Part shown: positions 1,958 to 27,374 of the stretch, one piece after another | Layout: the number at the start of each line of letters is the position of its first letter | Position numbering within the stretch: the stretch's first letter is position 1 | Source: a virus | Taxonomy: Duplodnaviria > Heunggongvirae > Uroviricota > Caudoviricetes | Length of the DNA stretch: 30,712 nucleotides | IMG/VR virus record: IMGVR_UViG_2872698443_000006 | Strand: one strand, 5' to 3' | Translations under genes and position numbers: made by a program | Notes under the pieces: generated by a model | What the model saw: only the letters and a program-made list of their open reading frames with translations | What the model was told of the DNA's origin: nothing | Database searches by the model: none

Positions 1958-4405
1958 TTAACCGTCATGCATCATGCTGGCACGGGCGCGCGCACGTTTA
2001 TCCCGCTCGTATTTTTCGAGCGCATCCTGTAACTGGCGGTCAAGCTGTGTCCCCGGCGCAGTACCACCCGTCAGGCTGATGTGATATTCGTTTTTACTCT
2101 GGTCCACATAAGAGCGGCCAGCCGGTGCCGTGACCGGCTGATAAGCCTGATAGCCTGCATAAGAGCTGGTCGCCGGAATATAACCACCGGTGCCATACGT
2201 GGCGGCATGAGTTCTGGCGGCGGTCTGGTCAAGTGTGTCTGACTCTTTGTTGATGACCCCGAGCTTTTCCAGTACCCAGTCAATACCGCTGCGCAGTTTG
2301 TTGAACGCATTAAGCGGCAGCATCAACGCGTCAGCCAGTGCCTGCCCGAACATGACACCCGTGTCACGACAACGGTTCAGGGTGTCCTGGGTGGCTTTAA
2401 CCGGAGCAATCAGGTTTGTAAACCACTGCCACGCGGCCTGTAACTTTTCGCCCAGCCAGTCAAACACCGGTTTCAGTGGCGTGAACAGTTCCCCCACCGG
2501 CGCAAATGCCGCTTTCAGCCCTTCCACCACACCGCCAAAGAATGCGCTGACAGGCTCCCAGTATTTACGGATAAGCAACGCCCCGGCGACAATTGCAGCC
2601 ACCACGGCCACAACCGGCCAGCTAATCGCCCCGATGGCCGTCATAACAGCACTGCCAACCGTCGTGAAGATTGCCCCCATTGCGCCTGCTGCCGCGATAA
2701 TGGCATTGATGCCGGTGATAACCGGCCAGGCTACAAGACCAATGGCACCGATGATGCCAATAAGCGCCAGCGCGCCACCGACAATGAGGCCGATGGTTGA
2801 CGCCAGTGATTTGTTTTTCTGGATCCAGCCGTCGAGTTTTAACACATACTTTGTGGCCGTCTGAGTGAGCTTACGCAGTGCGCCTTCCTGCTGGTCAAAC
2901 AGGTCTGTCCCCACCGCCTCATAAGCGGACTGAAACTCCTTAAAGTCACCGCCGAGGTTATCCTGCATGATTTTAACCAGCTCTTCCGTTTTACCGTCCG
3001 AGGCTTTCAGCGTGGCGGTCAGCTTATCCAGCTTTCCGCTTGCAGCCGCTGCCAGTAAAACGTTCGCTGATTTCAGGGCTTCCTCACCAAAAATGGTTTT
3101 AAGGTATTCCCCCTTCTGAGACGTTCCCAGCTTGTGTTTATCAAAGCTGGCCTGAATCTCTTTCAGAATGGTGAACAACGGACGCATATTTCCCTTTTTG
3201 TCCGAGGTTTTAACGCCAAGCTCTTTGAGTGCTTCCCATGCTTTCCCTGTCGGAGCCTGTAATCGGGTGACAACGGCACTACTACCAGTACCCGCCATTG
3301 ACCCCCTGATGTTATTGTCATGTAGCACACCGGTCATGGCTGCTGCCTGCTCAAGACTTACACCTGCCGTTCTTGCGACCGGGCCAAGATAAGTCAGTGC
3401 ATCACTGAGTCCCTGAAAATCAGCCGCCGACTTATTCATCGTTGCCGACAACACATCGCCCACATGGCTGACATCATCATTTGACAGTTGAAAAGATGCT
3501 TTAGTCCCCAGCAACAGTTGCGCGTTTTCTTCCATCGACCGCTGATTCGCCAGCGCCATATTCAGCGTGACCGGCGTTGCCGCCTGAATAGCCGCAGCAT
3601 CTCCACCCGCTTTCGCAATGATAATCTGCGCACCGGCCGCATCATCTGCCGAGGCGGCGGTGTTGTCACCGAGCTGGCGCGCCTGCCTGCGGAGTGCAGC
3701 CATTTCGGCGGAGTCTTTTGCCACTCCGAGCACAGCCTGTAATTCTGAGTTTTTCTGCGCAAACTCATAACCGGGCATCAGCAGCTTAACTCCGGCCATC
3801 GTTCCCGCCGCCGCAATCCCCACACCGGCAGAGCCCACCGAGGCCATATTTCCGGCCAGTTCCTTGCCTGCCTGATAACGCTGTTTTACTGCGTTAAGTT
3901 TTGCCTGTTGCGCACTGACACGCGCCAGCGCGTCACGCTGACGGTTAAGCTGTGCGGTGGTTTCACTGATACGGTTTTTCAGCCCCTGCTCATCATGTGC
4001 AAGATTGCGGGTATTAATTCCCACAGCGGCCAGTTCCCGCTGCTGGCGTTTAACGGAATCTGTCAGGCGGTTATATTTCGCCTGTAAGTCCTCCGCCGCA
4101 CGCTTTGCGGATTCCAGCACTTTCGCCTGAGCACGGGTCGGACGTTCGGTGTTTTTAAACTGTGTGGCAAGGGCTTCGGCCTCCTGCCGTGCCTTTTCAA
4201 GTGCATGACCAGTCACGGCGAGCTGTGCACTGGTCTTGCGGAATCCCTCAATACGGGATGCCTGACCGTTCAGCTCGCGCAGTGATTTTTGTGTTTCCCG
4301 GATATCCCCCGACAGCGATTTGCTCGCTGTGCGGATGGATTTAAACGGGCGGGATGCCTGGTCAACAGCCCTGAGCAATACCTGTAATTTTACATTGTTA
4401 CTCAT
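1958..4405 (-). CDS. T: Tail tape measure protein (gpT)
   Basis: 815 aa; coiled-coil-rich N-terminus, Gly/Ala-rich hydrophobic central region (GLIVGGALALIGIIGAIGL...), typical tape measure; ATG at 4403-4405. Confidence 0.9.
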   Translation of the reverse strand: MSNNVKLQVLLRAVDQASRPFKSIRTASKSLSGDIRETQKSLRELNGQASRIEGFRKTSAQLAVTGHALEKARQEAEALATQFKNTERPTRAQAKVLESAKRAAEDLQAKYNRLTDSVKRQQRELAAVGINTRNLAHDEQGLKNRISETTAQLNRQRDALARVSAQQAKLNAVKQRYQAGKELAGNMASVGSAGVGIAAAGTMAGVKLLMPGYEFAQKNSELQAVLGVAKDSAEMAALRRQARQLGDNTAASADDAAGAQIIIAKAGGDAAAIQAATPVTLNMALANQRSMEENAQLLLGTKASFQLSNDDVSHVGDVLSATMNKSAADFQGLSDALTYLGPVARTAGVSLEQAAAMTGVLHDNNIRGSMAGTGSSAVVTRLQAPTGKAWEALKELGVKTSDKKGNMRPLFTILKEIQASFDKHKLGTSQKGEYLKTIFGEEALKSANVLLAAAASGKLDKLTATLKASDGKTEELVKIMQDNLGGDFKEFQSAYEAVGTDLFDQQEGALRKLTQTATKYVLKLDGWIQKNKSLASTIGLIVGGALALIGIIGAIGLVAWPVITGINAIIAAAGAMGAIFTTVGSAVMTAIGAISWPVVAVVAAIVAGALLIRKYWEPVSAFFGGVVEGLKAAFAPVGELFTPLKPVFDWLGEKLQAAWQWFTNLIAPVKATQDTLNRCRDTGVMFGQALADALMLPLNAFNKLRSGIDWVLEKLGVINKESDTLDQTAARTHAATYGTGGYIPATSSYAGYQAYQPVTAPAGRSYVDQSKNEYHISLTGGTAPGTQLDRQLQDALEKYERDKRARARASMMHDG

Positions 4406-4825
4406 TCGTGTTTCCGCTTCGCCGGAGCGCCTTTTCGCGCCATGTGATGAGTTCGGTCAGGCTCATGGGATACAGTTCTGATGGCGGCCAGTGAAATATC
4501 ACTGCCACATCCGCCATCAGGTCATCGACCGAGAGATTTTTCGGAAACGTCACTGCACCGAGTTCGGCGACAAAAAACCGACCACCTTACCGGCCAGCGC
4601 CACAAGGTCAGGCAGTTCCAGTGCGGCGACTTCCTGCTCGGTCAGCATCGGTGCCGTCATGCGCGGCAACACCTTAATCAGTGCATCGACTTCGGAGTTT
4701 GCGACCGCTGCCAGACTGACACCGCGCAGCGTCCCGGCATTGGGTTTCATCAGCGTGACCTGTTCGATAACCTGCTCACCACGTTTGACCGGATTGTCCA
4801 GGGTAATCACATTTTCTTTGTTCAT
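4398..4825 (-). CDS. E': Tail assembly chaperone E+E' made by programmed -1 frameshift
   Basis: Slippery run GGUUUUUUG on the mRNA (reverse complement of 4571-4579) sits in codons G-F-L of E. Translating the -1 frame from there by hand gives an open frame (VAELGAVTFPKNLSVDDLMADVAVIFHWPPSELYPMSLTELITWREKALRRSGNTNE) that ends at TAA 4398-4400, overlapping the T start. Total 142 aa, the size I recall for P2 E+E'. Confidence 0.7.
4550..4825 (-). CDS. E: Tail assembly chaperone E (gpE)
   Basis: 91 aa ending ...KVVGFLSPNSVQ; lies directly upstream of T as in P2 FETUD operon. Confidence 0.85.
   Translation of the reverse strand: MNKENVITLDNPVKRGEQVIEQVTLMKPNAGTLRGVSLAAVANSEVDALIKVLPRMTAPMLTEQEVAALELPDLVALAGKVVGFLSPNSVQ
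4571..4579 (-). promoter_or_regulatory. -1 ribosomal frameshift slippery site (G GUU UUU UG)
   Basis: Seen directly: six consecutive A on the + strand give a U6 run in the E mRNA at the position where the E' frame opens. Confidence 0.65.
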
Positions 4826-4881
4826 GGTTTTCTCACTTCTTAATCAGGGTTAACCGGTCAGCCAGGCTGACCGGATGAAAA

Positions 4882-5400
4882 TCACAGGCCGATATTGCGG
4901 CGGTGTTGCTCCAGCCGGTCGACGCCGTTCACCTTCTCAATCATGTTGATGGTGTCGATTTCGACCAGCTCCTTACCGTCCATCGTCAGCCGGAAATAGG
5001 TGCATACCACGGAGATTTTCGACTCGGTGTCTTCTCCCTGTTTCCCCTCGCCGGTGTCGATTTCTTTCTGACGGCCACGCATGACCACCTCGACGGCCAC
5101 CGTTTCGCCGGTATCGTCGCGCTGGTAAGAGCCTGCAAAACGAATCGGCACGGCATCCACACCGGTTGCGGCGTAAAGCTCCCAGATAACCGAATCCGGG
5201 AAGCCCCCGAGCGACCACTCCATTGACAGCGCATCGTCATCAAGGCCGAGGTCTACCGGTGCGCTGCCGTTCATCCCCGCACCTCGATAGTTTTCGAGCT
5301 TACGGGTCAGTTTTGGCAGCGTGACGGACTTTGCAACGCCCTGATAGCTGTAGCCGTTCAGAAAGACGTTCATTAACTTGAGTTTGCGCGGCATTGCCAT
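4882..5400 (-). CDS. FII: Tail tube protein FII
   Basis: 172 aa, MAMPRKLKLMNVFLNGYSYQGVAKSVTLPKL...; contractile tail tube family; follows FI. Confidence 0.9.
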   Translation of the reverse strand: MAMPRKLKLMNVFLNGYSYQGVAKSVTLPKLTRKLENYRGAGMNGSAPVDLGLDDDALSMEWSLGGFPDSVIWELYAATGVDAVPIRFAGSYQRDDTGETVAVEVVMRGRQKEIDTGEGKQGEDTESKISVVCTYFRLTMDGKELVEIDTINMIEKVNGVDRLEQHRRNIGL

Positions 5401-5412
5401 CGGTCAGGCTCC

Positions 5413-6603
5413 TTAATTGCTGTTAACCGAGGTGACCAGATTTGCCAGGTATTTATCGGTAATACGCTGGCGCAGGGTCAGGTTTTCAAGAGGAGGCACC
5501 GGGGTATAGTCGTAGTCGATATACAGTTTTCCGGCCTTAAGGGTTTCCGCATCGTTGGATTCTTCGCTGAACCAGCAGGTCGCATCCACGATATAGCCGT
5601 TTGTTTTCAGCTCACGGAATTTGGCATTGATGCCGTCAACGATGTCGCGAATCAGCGTTGCGGTGATAGGCTTGTCCACCGCCCACATGTGCGCTTCAGC
5701 CATCGTGTCGGCCAGCACCTGCGCGGTGCGGGTGTAGTTTTCAAAGAGGAACAGCGGGTCATCCGAGCAGGTACGGTTACCCCAGAATCGGAAACCGTCA
5801 CGGCGAATCAGCGTAGTGACGCCTGACTCGTTAAGCAGGTCAGCATCGGTGCCGGACTCCTGCAAATCCCAGAATACAGATGCGCTGATGCCGGTAACAC
5901 CGTTCACCCCGACGTTGGACAGCGTTTTATGCCAGCCCTGCTCCTGGTCGATTTTAGCGCGCAGCCCCAGCGCACGGGCGGTGGCATACGCGGTGGCGGT
6001 GGTACTGGTGACCGTATCCCATGCGAGGAAATCCGGCCAGATGACCATCAGCTCACGCTGGCTGAAATTCTGGCGGTAGGCTTTCACCTCGGAAATGGTC
6101 TTACAGCCCCATGCGCTGATATACCCGAAAGCGCGCAGCTTCTGACAGACGGATGCCAGTGCAACAGCCACCTCTTTGGTGTCCAGTCCCGGCACACCGA
6201 GAATACGCGGTTTAACACCGGTTACCGACTCTGCCGCCAGCAGGGCTTTCAGTCCGGTGTACTGACCGTTTTCGTCGGTGGTGCCGATGATATTGGAAAC
6301 GGTCTGCGCAAGTTTCGTTTCTTCGTCGTCGCCGGTGCCGTCCTCCACGCGCACAACAACGGTGACCGGTTTTGACTGGTCGGCGATGGCCTGCAACGAT
6401 GCCGCCAGCGTGCCTTTTTTACCGGCCTTTGCAATTGCACTCTGCACATTGGTAATCAGCACCGGTTTATTGAGGGGGAAGGATTCCGCATCCGCATCGC
6501 TGGCCGTACAGACCATGCCAACAATGGCCGTGGATACGGTGGAAATGACGCGGGTGCCGTCGTTAATCTCCAGCACCTGCACGCCGTGATGATAGTCACT
6601 CAT
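5413..6603 (-). CDS. FI: Contractile tail sheath protein FI
   Basis: 396 aa, MSDYHHGVQVLEINDGTRVISTVSTAIVGMV...; ATG at 6601-6603 with GGAG upstream. Confidence 0.9.
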   Translation of the reverse strand: MSDYHHGVQVLEINDGTRVISTVSTAIVGMVCTASDADAESFPLNKPVLITNVQSAIAKAGKKGTLAASLQAIADQSKPVTVVVRVEDGTGDDEETKLAQTVSNIIGTTDENGQYTGLKALLAAESVTGVKPRILGVPGLDTKEVAVALASVCQKLRAFGYISAWGCKTISEVKAYRQNFSQRELMVIWPDFLAWDTVTSTTATAYATARALGLRAKIDQEQGWHKTLSNVGVNGVTGISASVFWDLQESGTDADLLNESGVTTLIRRDGFRFWGNRTCSDDPLFLFENYTRTAQVLADTMAEAHMWAVDKPITATLIRDIVDGINAKFRELKTNGYIVDATCWFSEESNDAETLKAGKLYIDYDYTPVPPLENLTLRQRITDKYLANLVTSVNSN

Positions 6604-22159: not shown

Positions 22160-22301
22160 CGCCCGCTTCATGGGTCGGTTTTAATGCAGTTGCATGAACA
22201 CGTCGAAACAGCACCAGTCCTGAACTAAAACAACCAATGTGAATGCTGCTTGCGCATGCAAATCCATGCATATTGTGTATGCATGATAACTGATTAGGTA
22301 A

Positions 22302-23000
22302 TTAATTCAGTTTTTTATACCGTGACCACCCTGATTTAACTGAGTTACGTTTAGATTCTTCCTCTATGCTTTGATACTCACTCTGTAATATTGAGAGAAA
22401 GTCTTTCCGCATCTTTAACTTGTATTGTTTCATTGCTGTTTCAATGATGAAATGCCCTTTTTTAAAGGATGGTCGACCTTCATATTTCAACCCTGACAAT
22501 AGAAATCTCAATCTAGGGTTTGACTCCATCCCAAATGCAAACTCCCACATATCGCTTATATTACATAGCGTATAAGGTATTGGCTTACCTCCCTGTTTAA
22601 GGTTATTAATCTTTAATGGTTCCTTAACATCACTAAACTTCATATAAACATTAACAATAGTACACTTCACACCGTGTAAATTTGTCACTTTGATATTAGC
22701 CAAGTCTTGCGATGAAAGCTTATCTGCTTTTTTTGCCGTAGAGGTCGTATATATAGGCGCAAAAACAACGTCAACTTTCTCTTTGCCTGACATCATCGCA
22801 TAATAACTTGTAAATAATGAAACCCCCACAGCCGCGAGAGTAGCCAATCCTGACACCCACCCTCCTAGCATTGTCCAAAATGCGACCTTGCTATTATTTT
22901 CACTCTCGCCCCATGCCCATTGAACTCCACCCAACACAAAACCAAATGCGAACATAAACAAGCAAAGACATATTATTAAAGCTATCCCACAATACTTCAT
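22302..23000 (-). CDS. Cargo gene: uncharacterised membrane-anchored protein (two N-terminal TM helices plus about 160-aa soluble domain)
   Basis: 232 aa; ATG 22998-23000 with AAGGA 9 nt upstream; TM1 IALIICLCLFMFAFGFVLGGV, TM2 FWTMLGGWVSGLATLAAVGVSLF; AT-rich codon usage unlike the rest of the prophage; no family recognised. Confidence 0.7.
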   Translation of the reverse strand: MKYCGIALIICLCLFMFAFGFVLGGVQWAWGESENNSKVAFWTMLGGWVSGLATLAAVGVSLFTSYYAMMSGKEKVDVVFAPIYTTSTAKKADKLSSQDLANIKVTNLHGVKCTIVNVYMKFSDVKEPLKINNLKQGGKPIPYTLCNISDMWEFAFGMESNPRLRFLLSGLKYEGRPSFKKGHFIIETAMKQYKLKMRKDFLSILQSEYQSIEEESKRNSVKSGWSRYKKLN

Positions 23001-23204
23001 GAAACAAATCCTTGATATAGAAAATCACAATATTTTCACACAACATTTAAACGAAATTTAAATCATCAAGCACTCTAATTACAAACAAAACAACGCACAA
23101 CACATCAAAAAAAATCATGTAAAACAAAAAAAATAGACATGCTTTAAGATCATCTTTCAATGCCACCGACACAATATCAAACTTCAGTATCGGTGGCATC
23201 ACCA

Positions 23205-23936
23205 TCAATTATTTAGTATCGAAACTATTTCACCCGTTTTCACATTAACACGCGCTGCTATTGTTTGCTTCACGACACCACCATAGGCATTAGTACCGCG
23301 AAATGTGGTTTTCACAATGGCGTGAGGGTCTTTATTCAGGATTAAATGATACACTGTTGACACATGTTTATAAGATGAATCATCGTTCATATTCTCTTTA
23401 ATTAACTTTTCCAATGGTCGATAAGAACCATCCCAACCACTAAAATTACTCTGAAATGTATCAAGGTTGATTTTATTGTTTAGTGATTGCGGATCTTTTT
23501 CATAATCATTAAAGCACCATCCAAGAACATCACCGAGTTTCAACTCATCATCTTTGGTAAAAGTATATTCACTCATGCAGGCATAAAATGCATCTGATGC
23601 GGTGACTGGCACTTCCTTAAAATCAATGTAACTATTTACAATATCGTGTCGAGTTTTCTTTGGCTCGTTCCGATATTCCTTGAGTGTTTTTCCACCATAT
23701 TCGAATGTTTTTTGGACTTGGTGTTCTGCAACGGTTGATGTTTCAGTTTTAGCAACTGGCTGGCTTTTTTCTGTTGGATAGAGTATTGAACCAATTATGC
23801 TCAATACAAAACCTCCTCCGAGATAAACCGCACTTGCACGTTTACGGTTTGGCATCCGCACCAGTGATGGTTTGATTAACCCGATGAAAAAAGCAACGAA
23901 AAAAGCGAGTGATAGAAAAGCGATTACAGTATCCAT
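23205..23936 (-). CDS. Cargo gene: uncharacterised membrane-anchored protein (two N-terminal TM helices plus about 190-aa soluble domain)
   Basis: 243 aa from ATG 23934-23936 (AAAGGA 5 nt upstream; the ORF-track start at 23960 is GTG); TM1 TVIAFLSLAFFVAFFIGLI, TM2 AVYLGGGFVLSIIGSILY; AT-rich; no family recognised. Confidence 0.7.
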   Translation of the reverse strand: MDTVIAFLSLAFFVAFFIGLIKPSLVRMPNRKRASAVYLGGGFVLSIIGSILYPTEKSQPVAKTETSTVAEHQVQKTFEYGGKTLKEYRNEPKKTRHDIVNSYIDFKEVPVTASDAFYACMSEYTFTKDDELKLGDVLGWCFNDYEKDPQSLNNKINLDTFQSNFSGWDGSYRPLEKLIKENMNDDSSYKHVSTVYHLILNKDPHAIVKTTFRGTNAYGGVVKQTIAARVNVKTGEIVSILNN

Positions 23937-24165
23937 AGCTATCCTTTTTGCATCATCCACATAAAAAATCGACCTTATGTTAGCAACAGGAAGCTTACTT
24001 TTGAATATTTGTAAGTTGTTAGCTTTAGCTCTCCGAGCTAACTCCTTTCAACCGTCAAAAACCAGCACCAACGCAGTAAAAATATTACTGTCAACTAACG
24101 CCTCGCTTCGCTCGTTGTTCAACCCCGCCAGCCCTGAAAACAAGTTTCACGACTGGCGGCGTTCT

Positions 24166-24372
24166 CTATCGTCTGCGTGGTGGTGGCATAACTCTGGATT
24201 GACCGATATGGTTAAACCGCCCGTAATTATCCCGGACTATTTCGGCACACCCGACCAGCTCGTCAGGCGTCAGATTTTCGTTAACCATAATCTGCTGTAG
24301 ACGGTGAACAATAGCCATCAGCTTGATATTTTTAGTTTTATGTTGCGGTATCTCGCCTGGTATTCTGTGCAT
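24166..24372 (-). CDS. Possible small protein (68 aa) coupled to the upstream ASCH-like gene
   Basis: ATG at 24370-24372 overlaps the TAA of the upstream gene (TAATG); no recognisable motif; could be non-coding. Confidence 0.3.
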   Translation of the reverse strand: MHRIPGEIPQHKTKNIKLMAIVHRLQQIMVNENLTPDELVGCAEIVRDNYGRFNHIGQSRVMPPPRRR

Positions 24373-24827
24373 TATCCAAGCCACCCGTTTTGCTGTGCAC
24401 GCTCCATCTGTTCATCTGAATAGTTCCATGCTCCATCCGTGGCAACCATTGCCCCGCCAGACATCCCCGTCTCTGGTTCATACATAACAGAAAGGCCGAG
24501 CTGATGCATAATTTCATGATTAATTCTGAATACCAGACCACGCTCACTAAGTTCTTTCCAGTTCACAATCTCATATGCGCCTGTATTAAGCAGCTCAATA
24601 CTTAGCAAGACATAATCTTCCAGCCAGTCTGACAGGTCAGTAACATCTGTTATCCGGGCTTCAACCTTTCGCCCCGTATACACACCCTGTACCCATTCAT
24701 GCAAAATCAACGTGTCCCCGCGCTCATAATTACGGTCATTTTTCCGAAACTCTGCGCGTTTCTTTCCTTCCAGCACAAGGTCAAAATATTTGGCGTGCAG
24801 CTTTACCTCGTGAATTTTTGCCATCAT
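24372..24827 (-). CDS. ASCH/PUA-like (DUF3850-like) domain protein with C-terminal HExxH motif
   Basis: About 151 aa from the ATG pair at 24825-24827 / 24822-24824, overlapping the A stop (ATGATGG). N-terminus KIHEVKLHAKYFDLVLEGKKRAEFRKNDRNYERGDTLILHEW fits the ASCH-like pattern as I recall it; C-terminal FRINHEIMHQLGL contains HExxH. Confidence 0.6.
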   Translation of the reverse strand: MMAKIHEVKLHAKYFDLVLEGKKRAEFRKNDRNYERGDTLILHEWVQGVYTGRKVEARITDVTDLSDWLEDYVLLSIELLNTGAYEIVNWKELSERGLVFRINHEIMHQLGLSVMYEPETGMSGGAMVATDGAWNYSDEQMERAQQNGWLG

Positions 24828-27109
24828 TTCCACTCCATTACTGTTGAGAATCCCGGCCACTCATCAGCGACCGGATACGTGAATTTTTTTCCGTCATAAT
24901 TTACGGTCGCGCCACGCGCCAGCGCCTCAAGCTCCCATCGCTGCGGCCTGATACCGTTCTGAGCAAGGTCAACGCGGATACGGGTAATTTGCATTCTTTC
25001 CGACCGGGTCAGTCTGGCCGATGGTGCAATTTCATGTAGTTTTAACGGGCTTCCGTTTCTCTGCTGACGGTTTGGCGTTCGCAGGTCGTGTTTTAATGCG
25101 CCCCTGAGCGCCCTCACGACCTCCGGTTCATTCCATTCAATAACTCCGTCATCAACCAGATTAAGCACGGCTGCGGCGTGCTCAGAAGGTGTGGGAGCCG
25201 GTAACGAAGTATCACCACCGGTGAGCTTTCCACAGTTATTGACAGGACTCCGAGGCGCGGCGATGCCGCTTTTTAAAGTCAGAGGCTCAACGACCGGAAC
25301 TTTCGGCACAATGCGCCAGTCCGTCGTTCTGGTGATATGAATATGACGCGCGCCGAGATGCGGCGCGTAAATGCCGACCACTCTCTCGACTTCTTCCTCG
25401 TACTCGTTAACTTCATCCGACGGACTACGGGCGACCCTGACAGTCTGACAATCGCGCGGGACATTTGCCCCACCCTGCGCGCTGATATACAACGCAAAAT
25501 CACCACTGTCTGCGGCGGCGCGTGCAGCCTCGACGCGCTCGTCAAACTCATCAGCAATGCTGACGCCGCGAGGCAATTTGCGTAGTTCACGGTAAGCCCC
25601 CATTGTCGGCAGACCAACCGTTTTAAATTGTGGGATGCGCCACGTTGACGCCCATGCGGTAACAGCCGCAGCAGTGTCTTTCAGCGGTCTGCCGGTATCG
25701 TTATCGAGCTGACCATCCAGTGCATAGCCATCGATGTTTTTTGAGATGTATTTCGCGATATACCCCGCAGCACCGCCCTGGTTAAGGTGTTTTGCCTGAA
25801 AACGGTTTCGCGCGGCTCCTCTTTCGTCGCCATCCTCTTTGAGCGCATAGCGACGCATGATTTCGATAATCTGGTTACGCTGGCGTGGATTACAAAAAAG
25901 CATCATATGCCAGTGCGGCGTTCCGTCGTGGTGTGGCTCGACGACACGCAAACCGTAGACCTGTAAATCATTATCCTTGAATGCCGTGCGCATCAGGCTC
26001 CAGATATGGCAGAGATAACGCTGCGCATCCTTTGGATTAAATGCCTCATCGTTCCAGCCGTGATTTAGCTGGACGGTTTTACTTTCGCCTTTTCCGACCT
26101 GACGTGTCGGGTGATACTTTGACGGCGCGGTAAGCGTGATAAACATCCCCACATCACCCTCTGCGGCGGCGTAACGCTCAATACCGGCAATGGTGTTCAT
26201 CAGCTCCATCCGGCGAATTTCAGGATTAGAAATACTGCCCATCACCTTACTGATAAGGTCGATGCGCTCGCCGGTTTCCCTGTTTTCAAGGTCACACGAT
26301 TTAAGAAATTCCAGATTTGCCTGGCGGCGTGCACGCACATCACGAATGGCATGTTTACTGGCATAAGGAGAACGGTCTTTATTCACCTCCCCGACAGCAA
26401 TCAGTAACGCCTCATGCCAGCGCATACGCTGGCCTTTGAGCTGATGAGTCCACCACTCATCGTTAAACAGACGGGCAATGGCAGAATATGCCTGCCTCGT
26501 GGTCATCTGTCCTTTACGGTATTTTTTCCAGTAAAGCGGGGAAATATTGAAAGCACGTGCAGCGCCAGCAACATGACCATAGAGGTGAGCCTGCGCCTCA
26601 TCCGTAAACAGCGATTCTTTTTCGCCATGTGCATCCACCCAGGCATCGCTGAGTTCCTCATACATCATGAAAAGCTGCGATGAGATACGGGCGGCAAACT
26701 TTTTCAGCTCCTTGTCATTCATTCCCGGCAGGCGCGCATAGTGGTCACGCTCTGCCAGAAACAGCAACGACGCGTCGGTGTTCATTTCATGGCGCTGATT
26801 CACACGCTCAATGCGCGGCCATAAACGACGCTGAAAAGTGGATGTGAGGAAATAAAACCCGTGCACCGGGCTTTTATTGCGCCGGATGTAGTCATAGCGT
26901 GAAGTAAACAGCGAGCGCAAAAAGTAAGGCAGGCGGTTAATCGTGGATAAAACACCTTGCACCTGACGCATCTCGTCACGTGTAAGGGGTCTTTCGCGCC
27001 CGACGGCCTCGCGTGGCGCGTTCCATGCATAAGCACCGGTAAACATCTTACCGGTGCCTGCGGCAAATGCTGACGGAGGGACAAAACGCCCGGAGGCTTT
27101 AACGGCCAT
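24824..27109 (-). CDS. A: Replication initiation protein A (rolling-circle nickase)
   Basis: 761 aa from ATG 27107-27109 (MAVKASGRFVPPSAFAAGTGKMF...); the ORF-track start at 27151 is a TTG extension; size and N-terminus match my recollection of P2 gpA. Confidence 0.9.
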   Translation of the reverse strand: MAVKASGRFVPPSAFAAGTGKMFTGAYAWNAPREAVGRERPLTRDEMRQVQGVLSTINRLPYFLRSLFTSRYDYIRRNKSPVHGFYFLTSTFQRRLWPRIERVNQRHEMNTDASLLFLAERDHYARLPGMNDKELKKFAARISSQLFMMYEELSDAWVDAHGEKESLFTDEAQAHLYGHVAGAARAFNISPLYWKKYRKGQMTTRQAYSAIARLFNDEWWTHQLKGQRMRWHEALLIAVGEVNKDRSPYASKHAIRDVRARRQANLEFLKSCDLENRETGERIDLISKVMGSISNPEIRRMELMNTIAGIERYAAAEGDVGMFITLTAPSKYHPTRQVGKGESKTVQLNHGWNDEAFNPKDAQRYLCHIWSLMRTAFKDNDLQVYGLRVVEPHHDGTPHWHMMLFCNPRQRNQIIEIMRRYALKEDGDERGAARNRFQAKHLNQGGAAGYIAKYISKNIDGYALDGQLDNDTGRPLKDTAAAVTAWASTWRIPQFKTVGLPTMGAYRELRKLPRGVSIADEFDERVEAARAAADSGDFALYISAQGGANVPRDCQTVRVARSPSDEVNEYEEEVERVVGIYAPHLGARHIHITRTTDWRIVPKVPVVEPLTLKSGIAAPRSPVNNCGKLTGGDTSLPAPTPSEHAAAVLNLVDDGVIEWNEPEVVRALRGALKHDLRTPNRQQRNGSPLKLHEIAPSARLTRSERMQITRIRVDLAQNGIRPQRWELEALARGATVNYDGKKFTYPVADEWPGFSTVMEWK

Positions 27110-27374
27110 ATGAGCCAAAAGCCTCTGAACAACGCTTGCTGAGTTGCTCAACCTGCACGTTTAAATCAGCAAAAGACTTTGCGCTTCCGGTCAGAATATC
27201 GTGATGCATCAGGCCTGAAACGAGCTGGCTTAATTTCGGGTAATAACCAACCACCGCCAGCCATTCCTGACCGGCGTTTTTACCGCTTTCCGCTCTCTTT
27301 TTCTCGTGGAGAATAAACTGAAAGCTGTCACTGGTAACGACATAACGTTCGCCAATTTCAATACGAATACTCAT
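27099..27374 (-). CDS. Small early protein (P2 orf83-like position), unknown function
   Basis: 91 aa, ATG 27372-27374 overlapping the upstream stop (ATGA). Confidence 0.55.
   Translation of the reverse strand: MSIRIEIGERYVVTSDSFQFILHEKKRAESGKNAGQEWLAVVGYYPKLSQLVSGLMHHDILTGSAKSFADLNVQVEQLSKRCSEAFGSYGR

What the first reader, a model, noticed from the sequence alone, without database searches (positions are those of the whole stretch)
24372..24827. ASCH/PUA-like protein with HExxH motif, translationally coupled to replication gene A
Start codons overlap the A stop (ATGATGG), so it is expressed with the early replication operon. The N-terminal half has an ASCH-like pattern (a fold often associated with nucleic-acid or modified-base recognition). 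The C-terminal half carries HEIMH, which could be a minimal zinc-binding or metallopeptidase-like site or could be coincidental. It occupies the P2 orf91/tin neighbourhood.
Basis: partly seen in the sequence, partly recalled or inferred. Interest (0 to 1): 0.55.

Follow-up and report, generated by a model that had tools for sequence, protein, structure and literature searches.

The report
Full-length phage P2 orf91 gene
This is the ordinary, already annotated two-domain orf91 gene of a P2-like prophage (an ASCH/PUA-like DUF3850 domain joined to a phage-only DUF7415 domain), and its HExxH motif is a lineage-specific coincidence, not a zinc or protease site.

Summary
The ORF is real and lies exactly where stated, on the minus strand at 24372..24827. 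It encodes 151 aa, and its ATG overlaps the TGA stop of replication gene A.

- **Identity.** It is the orthologue of phage P2 orf91, in a prophage 99.7% identical to Peduovirus P24A7b. RefSeq already names it "DUF3850 domain-containing protein" (WP_048266410). Rousset et al. 2022 list it as "DUF3850/ASCH".
- **HExxH.** HEIMH (residues 104-108) sits in a helix. E105 and H108 are family-conserved, but the first His is present in only 19 of 149 homologous domains; most have R or K there. No peptidase family or fold matches, so the zinc/metallopeptidase reading is rejected.
- **Context.** A 68-aa gene follows with a TAATG overlap. Canonical P2 Orf91 keeps only the DUF3850 half, because the tin-old cassette replaced the rest. 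DUF7415 recurs next to gpA or the portal gene in P2-like prophages of many genera.

Function is still unknown. The most likely role is a non-essential nucleic-acid- or nucleotide-binding accessory of the early operon. Interest is low.

The parts
24372..24827 (-). orf91-type CDS (151 aa from the first ATG, 150 aa from the second; TAA stop at 24372-24374)
   Evidence: ORF and translation. Annotated in RefSeq as WP_048266410, 'DUF3850 domain-containing protein', and as HYP17_gp44 in Peduovirus P24A7b. PHROG 1812 matches over the full length, E 3e-82.
24821..24836 (-). Translational coupling signals: GGAG (24836..24833), a 5-nt spacer, then ATGATGG (24827..24821), in which the gene A TGA stop (24826..24824) overlaps both ATGs
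   Evidence: Read directly from the sequence. Conserved in P2, Wphi and L-413C. P2SIAC10 has ATAATGG instead, that is a TAA stop and the second ATG.
24597..24815 (-). DUF3850 / minimal ASCH (PUA-like) beta-barrel domain, residues 5-77
   Evidence: Pfam PF12961, 65.1 bits, covering 1-77 of 77 profile positions. Pfam PF04266, 43 bits, covering profile positions 2-67 of 103. PDB 3IUW matches at E 1.3e-13. Foldseek against 3IUW gives TM 0.95 and rmsd 1.1 A. pLDDT is about 90.
24744..24767 (-). ASCH octapeptide G-x-K-x-x-[ETS]-x-R, here G21-K-K-R-A-E-F-R28
   Evidence: Motif definition taken from PMC9599836. Sequence. The alignment to YqfB places K23 on Lys21, E26 on Thr24 and R28 on Arg26.
24570..24596 (-). 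Variable inter-domain linker, residues 78-86
   Evidence: Only 11-22% identity, with indels, among the Enterobacter-type orthologues. pLDDT dips to 71 in this block. Homology to canonical P2 breaks here, after DYVLL.
24417..24569 (-). DUF7415 domain, residues 87-137 (helix 90-95, helix 98-110, strands 112-117 and 122-128), followed by a C-terminal helix at 138-147
   Evidence: Pfam PF24187, 51.2 bits against a cut-off of 27. The exhaustive search found 185 cluster representatives. The domain-only model has pLDDT 93.9. No solved structural relative was found.
24504..24518 (-). HEIMH (H104 E105 I106 M107 H108), a coincidental HExxH
   Evidence: Sequence. Lies inside helix 98-110. H104 is not conserved (19/149); E105 is 126/149 and H108 is 144/149.
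24166..24372 (-). Downstream 68-aa gene of the same operon; its ATG overlaps the orf91 TAA stop (TAATG)
   Evidence: PGAP CDS WP_048266359. 58-64% identical to the syntenic small gene in Enterobacter-type P2-like prophages. The N-terminus of P0048 is homologous to it and sits in the same protein as a DUF7415 domain.
24824..27109 (-). Replication gene A (rolling-circle initiator), the upstream gene of the coupled pair
   Evidence: ORF. PGAP 'replication endonuclease'. P2 gpA homology.

Best explanation
The ORF is the intact, full-length form of phage P2 gene orf91, carried by a P2-like (Peduovirus) prophage of E. coli.

**Shown.**
- It is translated as part of the early/replication operon. Its start overlaps the stop of gene A, and a 68-aa gene follows with a second stop/start overlap.
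- The protein has two independently folding domains joined by a variable linker.
- The first domain is a minimal ASCH/PUA-like beta-barrel (DUF3850) carrying the ASCH octapeptide GKKRAEFR.
- The second is a phage-specific alpha-alpha-beta-beta-alpha domain (DUF7415) with no solved structural relative.
- The HExxH motif is not a metal or protease site. It exists only because this lineage has His at position 104, where the family usually has Arg or Lys, next to the family-conserved E105 and H108.

**Inferred mechanism.**
- The ASCH-like barrel acts as a non-catalytic binder of nucleic acid, or of a nucleotide or modified base, through its basic K23/E26/R28/N30-D31-R32 cleft.
- DUF7415 is the better conserved half. 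It recurs in the gpA-to-portal region of P2-like prophages (next to gpA and/or the portal gene) and in early regions of T4-like and T5-like phages (beside nrdD, and near an origin-binding protein gene). It supplies the second activity, most likely binding of a conserved partner protein or small ligand during phage DNA replication or nucleotide metabolism.
- The protein is an accessory factor rather than an essential one. Canonical P2 has lost the DUF7415 half and the 68-aa gene to the tin-old cassette.
For: **Identity and synteny.**
- The region is 99.7% identical to Peduovirus P24A7b and 100% identical to E. coli AR_0081.
- It corresponds to the genes annotated orf91 in Wphi, L-413C and P2.
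- P2 Orf91 residues 1-75 match at 73/75 positions, and homology then stops.
- Orthologues at 47-57% identity lie immediately after gpA in Enterobacter-type prophages.

**Coupling.**

**Domains.**
- Pfam matches.
- PDB 3IUW by sequence and by fold.
- AlphaFold models with pLDDT 90 and 94.

**HExxH not conserved.**

**No zincin fold or family.**

**Not a YqfB-type enzyme.** The Thr24 nucleophile aligns to E26, and the region holding Glu74 has no counterpart.

**ASCH/PUA members bind nucleic acids, nucleotides or modified bases.** PDB titles for TRIP4 ASCH bound to dsDNA; literature.

**DUF7415 contexts.**
- 20 of 22 loci in species-representative genomes have a P2-type portal and/or gpA within 7 kb.
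- Aeromonas P2-like prophages carry DUF7415 and DUF3850 as separate genes, two genes apart, downstream of gpA.
- Fusion partners include a dATP/dGTP pyrophosphohydrolase, thymidylate kinase and an exoribonuclease.
- The gene lies beside nrdD in T4-like Klebsiella phages and near an origin-binding protein in a T5-like phage.

**Relative conservation.** The C-terminal domain (60-72% identity) is better conserved than the N-terminal domain (40-55%) among orthologues.

**Prevalence.** 407 of 5426 complete E. coli genomes carry the block, and 345 carry it essentially complete.
Against: - No experiment on any DUF3850 or DUF7415 protein was found. A search for DUF7415 returned no papers.
- Binding rather than catalysis is an inference from missing YqfB residues. 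Other ASCH-fold proteins are enzymes: the ZmASCH RNase and the BapA 5hmC glycosylase.
- Some orthologues (P0025, P0028) have lost E26 and R32 of the ASCH cleft, which weakens the idea that this cleft is the key site.
- DUF3850 was not detected within 7 kb of DUF7415 in any of the 22 genome loci, so the link between the two domains is restricted to some lineages.
- DUF7415 has many near-invariant polar residues (R101, N103, E105, H108, S123, D131), so it could itself be a small enzyme.
- One preprint calls orf91 'an essential protein', without giving evidence.
- Model coordinates could not be inspected, so the metal-site geometry was not examined directly.
Confidence: 0.6

Rival explanations
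1. The C-terminal HExxH is a minimal zinc-binding or metallopeptidase active site. H104 and H108 ligate zinc, E105 acts as the general base, and a downstream acidic residue (E117 or E119) is the third ligand.
For: HEIMH lies in a helix. It is invariant within the Escherichia/Enterobacter orf91 subfamily. E105 and H108 are conserved across the family, and position 119 is acidic in 96 of 149 sequences.
Confidence: 0.03
2. The ASCH/DUF3850 domain is an enzyme. It could be an N4-acylcytidine amidohydrolase like YqfB, a single-strand RNase like ZmASCH, or a modified-base DNA glycosylase like BapA, acting on host or competitor nucleic acid or nucleosides.
For: The ASCH octapeptide is present, with the Lys conserved. 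YqfB (PDB 1TE7 / 9KYF) is the next-best sequence match after 3IUW, at E 0.03. ZmASCH structures appear among the fold hits. Enzymatic ASCH-fold proteins exist.
Against: The YqfB nucleophile Thr24 aligns to Glu26, and the C-terminal segment carrying Glu74 is absent from this 77-residue domain. Pfam ASCH profile positions 68-103 are unmatched. Similarity to ZmASCH is weak (E > 0.01, TM 0.35-0.38). Some orthologues have lost E26 and R32.
Confidence: 0.12
3. The gene belongs functionally to the variable gpA-gpQ anti-phage hotspot. It would be a defence sensor, or a counter-defence factor such as a sponge for a modified-nucleotide signal, rather than part of the replication machinery.
For: It lies inside the gpA-gpQ interval defined as the P2 defence hotspot, and it is listed in those loci as 'DUF3850/ASCH'. 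Its GC content (about 0.46) is lower than that of gene A (about 0.55). PUA/ASCH-clan domains serve as modified-nucleotide sensors in defence systems. DUF3850 fusions to ParB-CTPase domains are enriched in prophages, and those authors suggested an anti-defence role.
Against: It keeps the same position and the same coupling to gene A next to many different cargo sets: a methyltransferase in Wphi, tin-old in P2, and two hypothetical genes here. It is also retained across genera. The only PADLOC match is a single weak one (PDC-M11B, E 0.024, 12.6 bits, residues 11-30). The homology and GC break that marks the cargo starts near 24100, downstream of this gene and of the 68-aa gene.
Confidence: 0.2

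Closest known systems
Phage P2 Orf91 (NP_046796) and the genes annotated orf91 in Wphi and L-413C
   Same: Same position directly after gene A, with the ATGATGG overlap. Residues 1-75 are 97% identical to P2 Orf91. L-413C orf91 (150 aa) is a full-length equivalent.
   Different: Canonical P2 Orf91 (109 aa) shares only the DUF3850 half. After DYVLL it reads into unrelated sequence at the edge of the tin-old cassette. In the Wphi record the gene is split into orf91 and orf92 by single-base indels.
PDB 3IUW, 'activating signal cointegrator' from Enterococcus faecalis (DUF3850, a structural-genomics entry)
   Same: 41% identity over 80 aligned columns in the Foldseek structural alignment (44% in the MAFFT alignment A5). 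TM 0.95 and rmsd 1.1 A. The K-x-x-E-x-R-K-N-D-R cleft motif is shared.
   Different: 3IUW is a stand-alone 83-aa protein with no DUF7415 domain, and it has no assigned function.
ASCH superfamily (PF04266): human TRIP4/ASC-1, ZmASCH, E. coli YqfB
   Same: PUA-like beta-barrel, and the octapeptide G-x-K-x-x-[ETS]-x-R is present.
   Different: Only about 77 residues, matching profile positions 2-67 of 103. It lacks the YqfB Thr24 and Glu74 catalytic residues. Fold scores to ZmASCH and TRIP4 are weak.
Pfam DUF7415 (PF24187), small phage proteins
   Same: The core motif W-x-x-L-S-x-x-G-L-x-x-R-I-N-x-E-I-[LM]-H-x-L-G-L ... G-x-S-x-G ... D-G-x-W-x-Y is present. The predicted fold matches BFVD models of DUF7415 proteins.
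   Different: Typical members are stand-alone proteins of 75-80 aa. Here the domain is fused behind DUF3850. Position 104 is H instead of R/K, 109 is Q instead of P, and 116 is Y instead of R.
HExxH zincin metallopeptidases
   Same: An HExxH motif in a helix.
   Different: The first His is not conserved. There is no family or fold match. The domain is far smaller than any zincin catalytic domain.

Membership tests
DUF3850 (PF12961) | Match to the family HMM above the gathering score, over the full profile length | tested here: met
   65.1 bits against a cut-off of 22.9; residues 5-77 cover profile positions 1-77 of 77.
ASCH superfamily (PF04266, PUA-like clan) | Match to the family HMM above the gathering score | tested here: met
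   43 bits against a cut-off of 21.2, but only profile positions 2-67 of 103 are covered.
ASCH superfamily (PF04266, PUA-like clan) | Conserved octapeptide G-x-K-x-x-[ETS]-x-R (definition from PMC9599836) | tested here: met
   G21-K-K-R-A-E-F-R28. It aligns in register with the YqfB sequence GRKTITIR.
ASCH superfamily (PF04266, PUA-like clan) | PUA-like beta-barrel fold | tested here: met
   The model (pLDDT about 90) gives TM 0.95 to 3IUW. Lower-ranking hits include 2Z0T, 1WK2, 1XNE, ZmASCH and the TRIP4 ASCH domain.
ASCH superfamily (PF04266, PUA-like clan) | Full domain length of about 110 residues | tested here: not met
   The domain ends at about residue 79, and the C-terminal third of the ASCH profile is absent. 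It is therefore a minimal ASCH domain, as in 3IUW.
YqfB-type N4-acetylcytidine amidohydrolases | Catalytic triad Lys21 / Thr24 / Glu74 | tested here: not met
   The Lys is present (K23). Thr24 aligns to E26. The alignment stops at YqfB residue 60, so there is no counterpart of Glu74.
DUF7415 (PF24187) | Match to the family HMM above the gathering score, and presence of the conserved core residues | tested here: met
   51.2 bits against a cut-off of 27. W90, G97, L98, I102, N103, E105, H108, G111, L112, G121, S123, D131, G132, W134 and Y136 are present. P109 is replaced by Q and R116 by Y.
HExxH zincin metallopeptidases | Both His residues and the Glu of HExxH conserved among homologues | tested here: not met
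   H104 is present in 19/149, E105 in 126/149 and H108 in 144/149. The first His is present in 1 of 22 genome loci.
HExxH zincin metallopeptidases | Sequence or fold similarity to a peptidase family | tested here: not met
HExxH zincin metallopeptidases | A third zinc ligand positioned next to the two His residues, and bound zinc | not testable with these tools
P2 orf91 orthologous group | Sequence identity to P2 Orf91, and a position immediately 3' of gene A in the early operon | tested here: met
   73 of 75 residues identical over the shared part. The same ATGATGG junction is present.
Known anti-phage defence systems (PADLOC-DB) | Significant match to a defence-protein model | tested here: not met
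   The only hit is a 12.6-bit match at E 0.024 over 20 residues (PDC-M11B).

The most novel reading that the evidence does not exclude
Orf91 and the 68-aa protein encoded after it could form a previously unrecognised accessory module of P2-type phages. The minimal PUA-like barrel would capture a nucleotide or modified base, for example by sequestering a nucleotide-derived immune signal such as those sensed by PUA-domain defence systems. DUF7415, a fold with no solved relative and a near-invariant R101/N103/E105/H108/S123/D131 constellation, would be a new small enzyme or ligand- or partner-binding domain shared by P2-, T4- and T5-like phages.
Probability: 0.1. Interest if true: 0.6.

Novelty: already known. 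Interest (0 to 1): 0.15.

Why it matters
It matters little as a discovery. The gene, both of its domains and its place in the P2 genome are already in RefSeq, Pfam, PHROGs and a published hotspot catalogue.

The useful outcomes are corrections and clarifications:
- The HExxH motif should not be read as a protease or zinc site.
- The textbook P2 'Orf91' is a truncated chimera. The natural protein is about 150 aa with two domains, followed by a coupled 68-aa gene.
- In canonical P2, the left edge of the tin-old hotspot cassette cuts through this gene at the domain linker.
- DUF7415 is a widespread, strongly conserved early-gene domain. It is found mostly in P2-like prophages and has no structural or functional assignment, which makes it a reasonable but not urgent target for biochemistry.

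Tried and rejected
- NCBIfam gave no hit.
- PADLOC gave nothing significant for this protein or for the two cargo proteins.
- A literature search for DUF7415 returned no papers. The DUF3850 papers contain only domain-census remarks.
- Sequence profiles of DUF7415 against the PDB found nothing.
- The afdb50 fold library was not available.
- Two apparent multi-repeat DUF7415 hits, P0170 (a YadA-type adhesin) and P0185, were examined and rejected as accumulations of weak repeat matches that lack the motif.
It was rerun with a trimmed core alignment.
- The terminator and promoter scan gave no convincing operon end after the 68-aa gene.
- A consistent DUF3850-DUF7415 gene-neighbourhood link was looked for and found only in Escherichia/Enterobacter (as a fusion) and Aeromonas (as adjacent genes). 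It was absent from all 22 species-representative DUF7415 loci.
- The Aeromonas small gene lying between the two domain genes is not homologous to the 68-aa gene here.

Full report
**The observation.** The minus strand from 24827 to 24372 encodes a 151-residue protein, MMAKIHEV...QQNGWLG, ending in TAA. The plus-strand bases 24821-24827 (ccatcat) read ATGATGG on the minus strand. Gene A ends with TGA at 24826-24824, so its stop overlaps the first ATG and abuts the second. A GGAG sequence lies 5 nt upstream. HEIMH is at residues 104-108, coordinates 24504..24518.

**Source and identity of the gene.** The region is 99.7% identical to Peduovirus P24A7b. The 671 bases around the gene are 100% identical to a prophage in E. 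coli AR_0081, where PGAP calls the gene WP_048266410, 'DUF3850 domain-containing protein'. There it sits between 'replication endonuclease' (gene A) and a 68-aa hypothetical gene. It is the same gene that is annotated orf91 in phages Wphi, L-413C and P2. It is therefore orf91 itself, not merely a gene near orf91. The block is common: 407 of 5426 complete E. coli genomes carry it, 345 of them essentially complete. The hotspot catalogue of Rousset et al. 2022 lists this exact protein accession as 'DUF3850/ASCH' (PMC9122126, supplementary tables).

**Anatomy.**
- Pfam finds DUF3850 at residues 5-77 (E 6.6e-18) and ASCH at residues 9-74 (E 7.8e-11). It also finds a second, independent domain, DUF7415, at residues 87-129 (E 1.4e-13).
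- PHROG 1812 covers the whole protein. Other PHROG families match only one half or the other.
- An AlphaFold model built on a 79-sequence alignment has mean pLDDT 90. It shows a beta-barrel at residues 5-79, a less confident linker, and then helix 90-95, helix 98-110, strands 112-117 and 122-128, and helix 138-147.
- The barrel superposes on PDB 3IUW, an 83-aa Enterococcus DUF3850 protein from structural genomics, with TM 0.95 and rmsd 1.1 A. Other ASCH/PUA-like proteins follow at much lower scores.
- The ASCH hallmark octapeptide G-x-K-x-x-[ETS]-x-R (PMC9599836) is present as G21KKRAEFR28.
- The domain is a minimal ASCH of about 77 residues, covering only profile positions 2-67 of 103.

**The HExxH question.** The motif lies in helix 98-110, but it is not a family feature.
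- An exhaustive search with the C-terminal 72 residues found 185 cluster representatives.
- In 149 aligned domains, position 104 is R in 56, K in 24, H in 19 and T in 18. E105 is conserved in 126 and H108 in 144.
- In 22 DUF7415 genes from species-representative bacterial genomes, only one has His at the first position.
- The P2-like prophages of Aeromonas read RINREILH.
- The motif here is thus produced by a lineage-specific His at a normally basic surface position, next to two residues conserved for other reasons.
- No peptidase family matches even at E <= 10.
- A DUF7415 profile finds nothing in the PDB.
- The protein has no cysteine, and HExxH occurs three times in this window's long open segments.
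- The zinc or metallopeptidase reading is rejected. I could not inspect model coordinates, so this conclusion rests on conservation and fold rather than geometry.

**Relation to canonical P2.**
- P2's annotated Orf91 (109 aa) is identical to this protein at 73 of the first 75 residues and then diverges completely.
- The DNA alignment shows that homology ends right after the codons for DYVLL, which is at the inter-domain linker. Beyond that point P2 carries the tin-old cassette.
- The textbook Orf91 is therefore a truncated chimera that retains only the DUF3850 domain. P2 grows without the DUF7415 half and without the following small gene, which argues that these are accessory.
- One preprint calls orf91 essential but gives no evidence.
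- In the Wphi record the gene is split into orf91 and orf92 by single-base indels.

**The operon continues past the finding.**
- A 68-aa gene (24166..24372, minus strand) starts with an ATG that overlaps the orf91 TAA stop (TAATG). PGAP annotates it.
- It is 58-64% identical to the small gene that follows the orthologue in Enterobacter-type P2-like prophages. There the two-domain protein (47-57% identical) again sits directly after gpA.
- One unrelated protein, P0048, combines a homologue of this small protein with a DUF7415 domain. This is a weak hint that the two act together.
- Homology to other phages and GC content both break near 24100. The variable AT-rich cargo (about 22200-24100) therefore begins after these two genes.

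**What the domains are associated with.**
- *DUF7415, typical form.* It is usually a stand-alone protein of 75-80 aa with no functional name anywhere.
- *DUF7415 in bacterial genomes.* It is overwhelmingly a P2-like prophage gene. Of 22 loci, 20 have a P2-type portal and/or gpA within 7 kb. The gene lies before or after gpA depending on the lineage.
- *DUF7415 in virulent phages.* It lies next to nrdD in T4-like Klebsiella phages and near an origin-binding protein in a T5-like phage.
- *DUF7415 fusion partners.* Occasional partners include a dATP/dGTP pyrophosphohydrolase, thymidylate kinase, an exoribonuclease and DUF551.
- *Link to DUF3850.* In Aeromonas P2-like prophages, DUF7415 and DUF3850 are separate genes two positions apart, downstream of gpA. 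This is the split counterpart of the fusion seen here. However, DUF3850 is absent from all 22 other loci, so the link between the two domains is restricted to some lineages.
- *Relative conservation.* Among orthologues the DUF7415 half (60-72% identity) is better conserved than the ASCH half (40-55%). Some orthologues have lost E26 and R32 of the ASCH cleft.
- *DUF3850 elsewhere.* It is often fused to ParB-CTPase domains in prophages.

**Most likely function.**
- *Shown:* the gene is a translationally coupled early-operon gene. It encodes a minimal ASCH/PUA-like barrel plus a DUF7415 domain. The HExxH is incidental.
- *Inferred:* the barrel is a non-catalytic binder of nucleic acid or of a nucleotide or modified base.
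  - ASCH/PUA-clan domains do this in TRIP4-dsDNA complexes and in defence sensors.
  - The YqfB amidohydrolase triad is not present: Thr24 aligns to E26, and Glu74 has no counterpart.
- *Inferred:* DUF7415 provides a second, conserved interaction or activity connected with phage replication or nucleotide metabolism.
- I put about 0.95 on the identity and domain statements and about 0.35 on the specific binding-accessory mechanism.

**Rivals.**
- An enzymatic ASCH domain: about 0.12.
- A defence or counter-defence role tied to the hotspot: about 0.2. This is supported by the location, the lower GC content and the roles of PUA domains in immunity. It is opposed by the constant synteny next to varying cargo and by PADLOC giving only a single weak match (E 0.024).
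- The zinc site: about 0.03.

**Novelty and verdict.** The gene and both domains are already annotated and catalogued, so this is 'already known' and of low interest. The points worth keeping are:
- the refutation of the HExxH reading;
- the recognition that P2's Orf91 is a truncated form of a two-domain protein cut at the hotspot edge;
- DUF7415 as a widespread, structurally unassigned early-gene domain found mostly in P2-like prophages.

Noticed in passing
window 24166..24372 (-), compared with 23977..24300 (+): A 68-aa gene follows orf91 with a TAATG stop/start overlap. It is conserved (58-64% aa identity) and syntenic in Enterobacter-type P2-like prophages, and PGAP annotates it. The RefSeq record of Peduovirus P24A7b instead annotates an overlapping ORF on the opposite strand (107 aa here). 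Both have PHROG families, but the minus-strand gene is the better supported.
   Followed up: partly
L005 (phage P2, NC_001895) 4317-4646, compared with window 24372..24827: Canonical P2 Orf91 is a chimera. Homology to the two-domain protein stops after residue 75 (DYVLL), at the domain linker, where the tin-old cassette begins. In P2 the hotspot boundary therefore lies inside this gene.
   Followed up: yes
L002 (phage Wphi) 3662-4177: Wphi orf91 and orf92 are the two halves of the same gene, separated by single-base indels relative to four other phages. This is either a sequencing error in the 2003 record or a pseudogene.
   Followed up: partly
window 22302..23000 (-) and 23205..23960 (-): The gpA-gpQ hotspot cargo consists of two AT-rich genes (GC 0.30-0.42) encoding 232-aa and 251-aa proteins with hydrophobic N-termini (PHROG 16957 and 3403). 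They have no significant Pfam hit (only a sub-threshold tRNA_Me_trans match, E 0.038, for the 232-aa protein) and no PADLOC hit. Rousset et al. list the arrangement only as 'DUF3850/ASCH + hypothetical + hypothetical + hypothetical'. It is a candidate uncharacterised defence or exclusion pair.
   Followed up: partly
L016-L018 (Aeromonas P2-like prophages) about 4500-6300: Downstream of gpA these prophages carry a 166-170-aa hypothetical gene, a stand-alone DUF7415 gene (81 aa), a 76-78-aa gene, and a DUF3850 protein with a variable C-terminal extension (one has a CxxC...CxxC ribbon). This is the split counterpart of the E. coli fusion.
   Followed up: yes
L021-L042 (species-representative genomes): Of 22 DUF7415 loci, 20 lie within 7 kb of a P2-type portal and/or gpA gene. 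The hosts include Pseudomonas, Pectobacterium, Shewanella and Pseudoalteromonas. In some lineages the gene lies between gpB and gpA, in others after gpA. One further locus, with neither marker within 7 kb, is in a Bacteroidales MAG.
   Followed up: partly
proteins P0017, P0018, P0038; locus L012 3168-3461: Database proteins join a Cox-like or RepB-like N-terminus to the C-terminal part of Orf91, and one is seen on 16 contigs. A remnant annotated 'DUF7415 domain-containing protein, incomplete' lies next to an integrase fragment beside cpxP. These look like deletion derivatives of P2-like prophages.
   Followed up: no
window 24372..24827 compared with 24824..27151: The GC content of orf91 and the 68-aa gene (about 0.45-0.48) is intermediate between gene A (about 0.55) and the cargo (about 0.35). 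This suggests a different evolutionary history from the core replication genes.
   Followed up: no
protein P0048 (188 aa, metagenomic): A single protein combines a homologue of the 68-aa downstream gene product, a weak ClpX-type C4 zinc-finger match (E 5.7e-4, below the Pfam cut-off) and a DUF7415 domain ending in the same 'GW' tail.
   Followed up: partly
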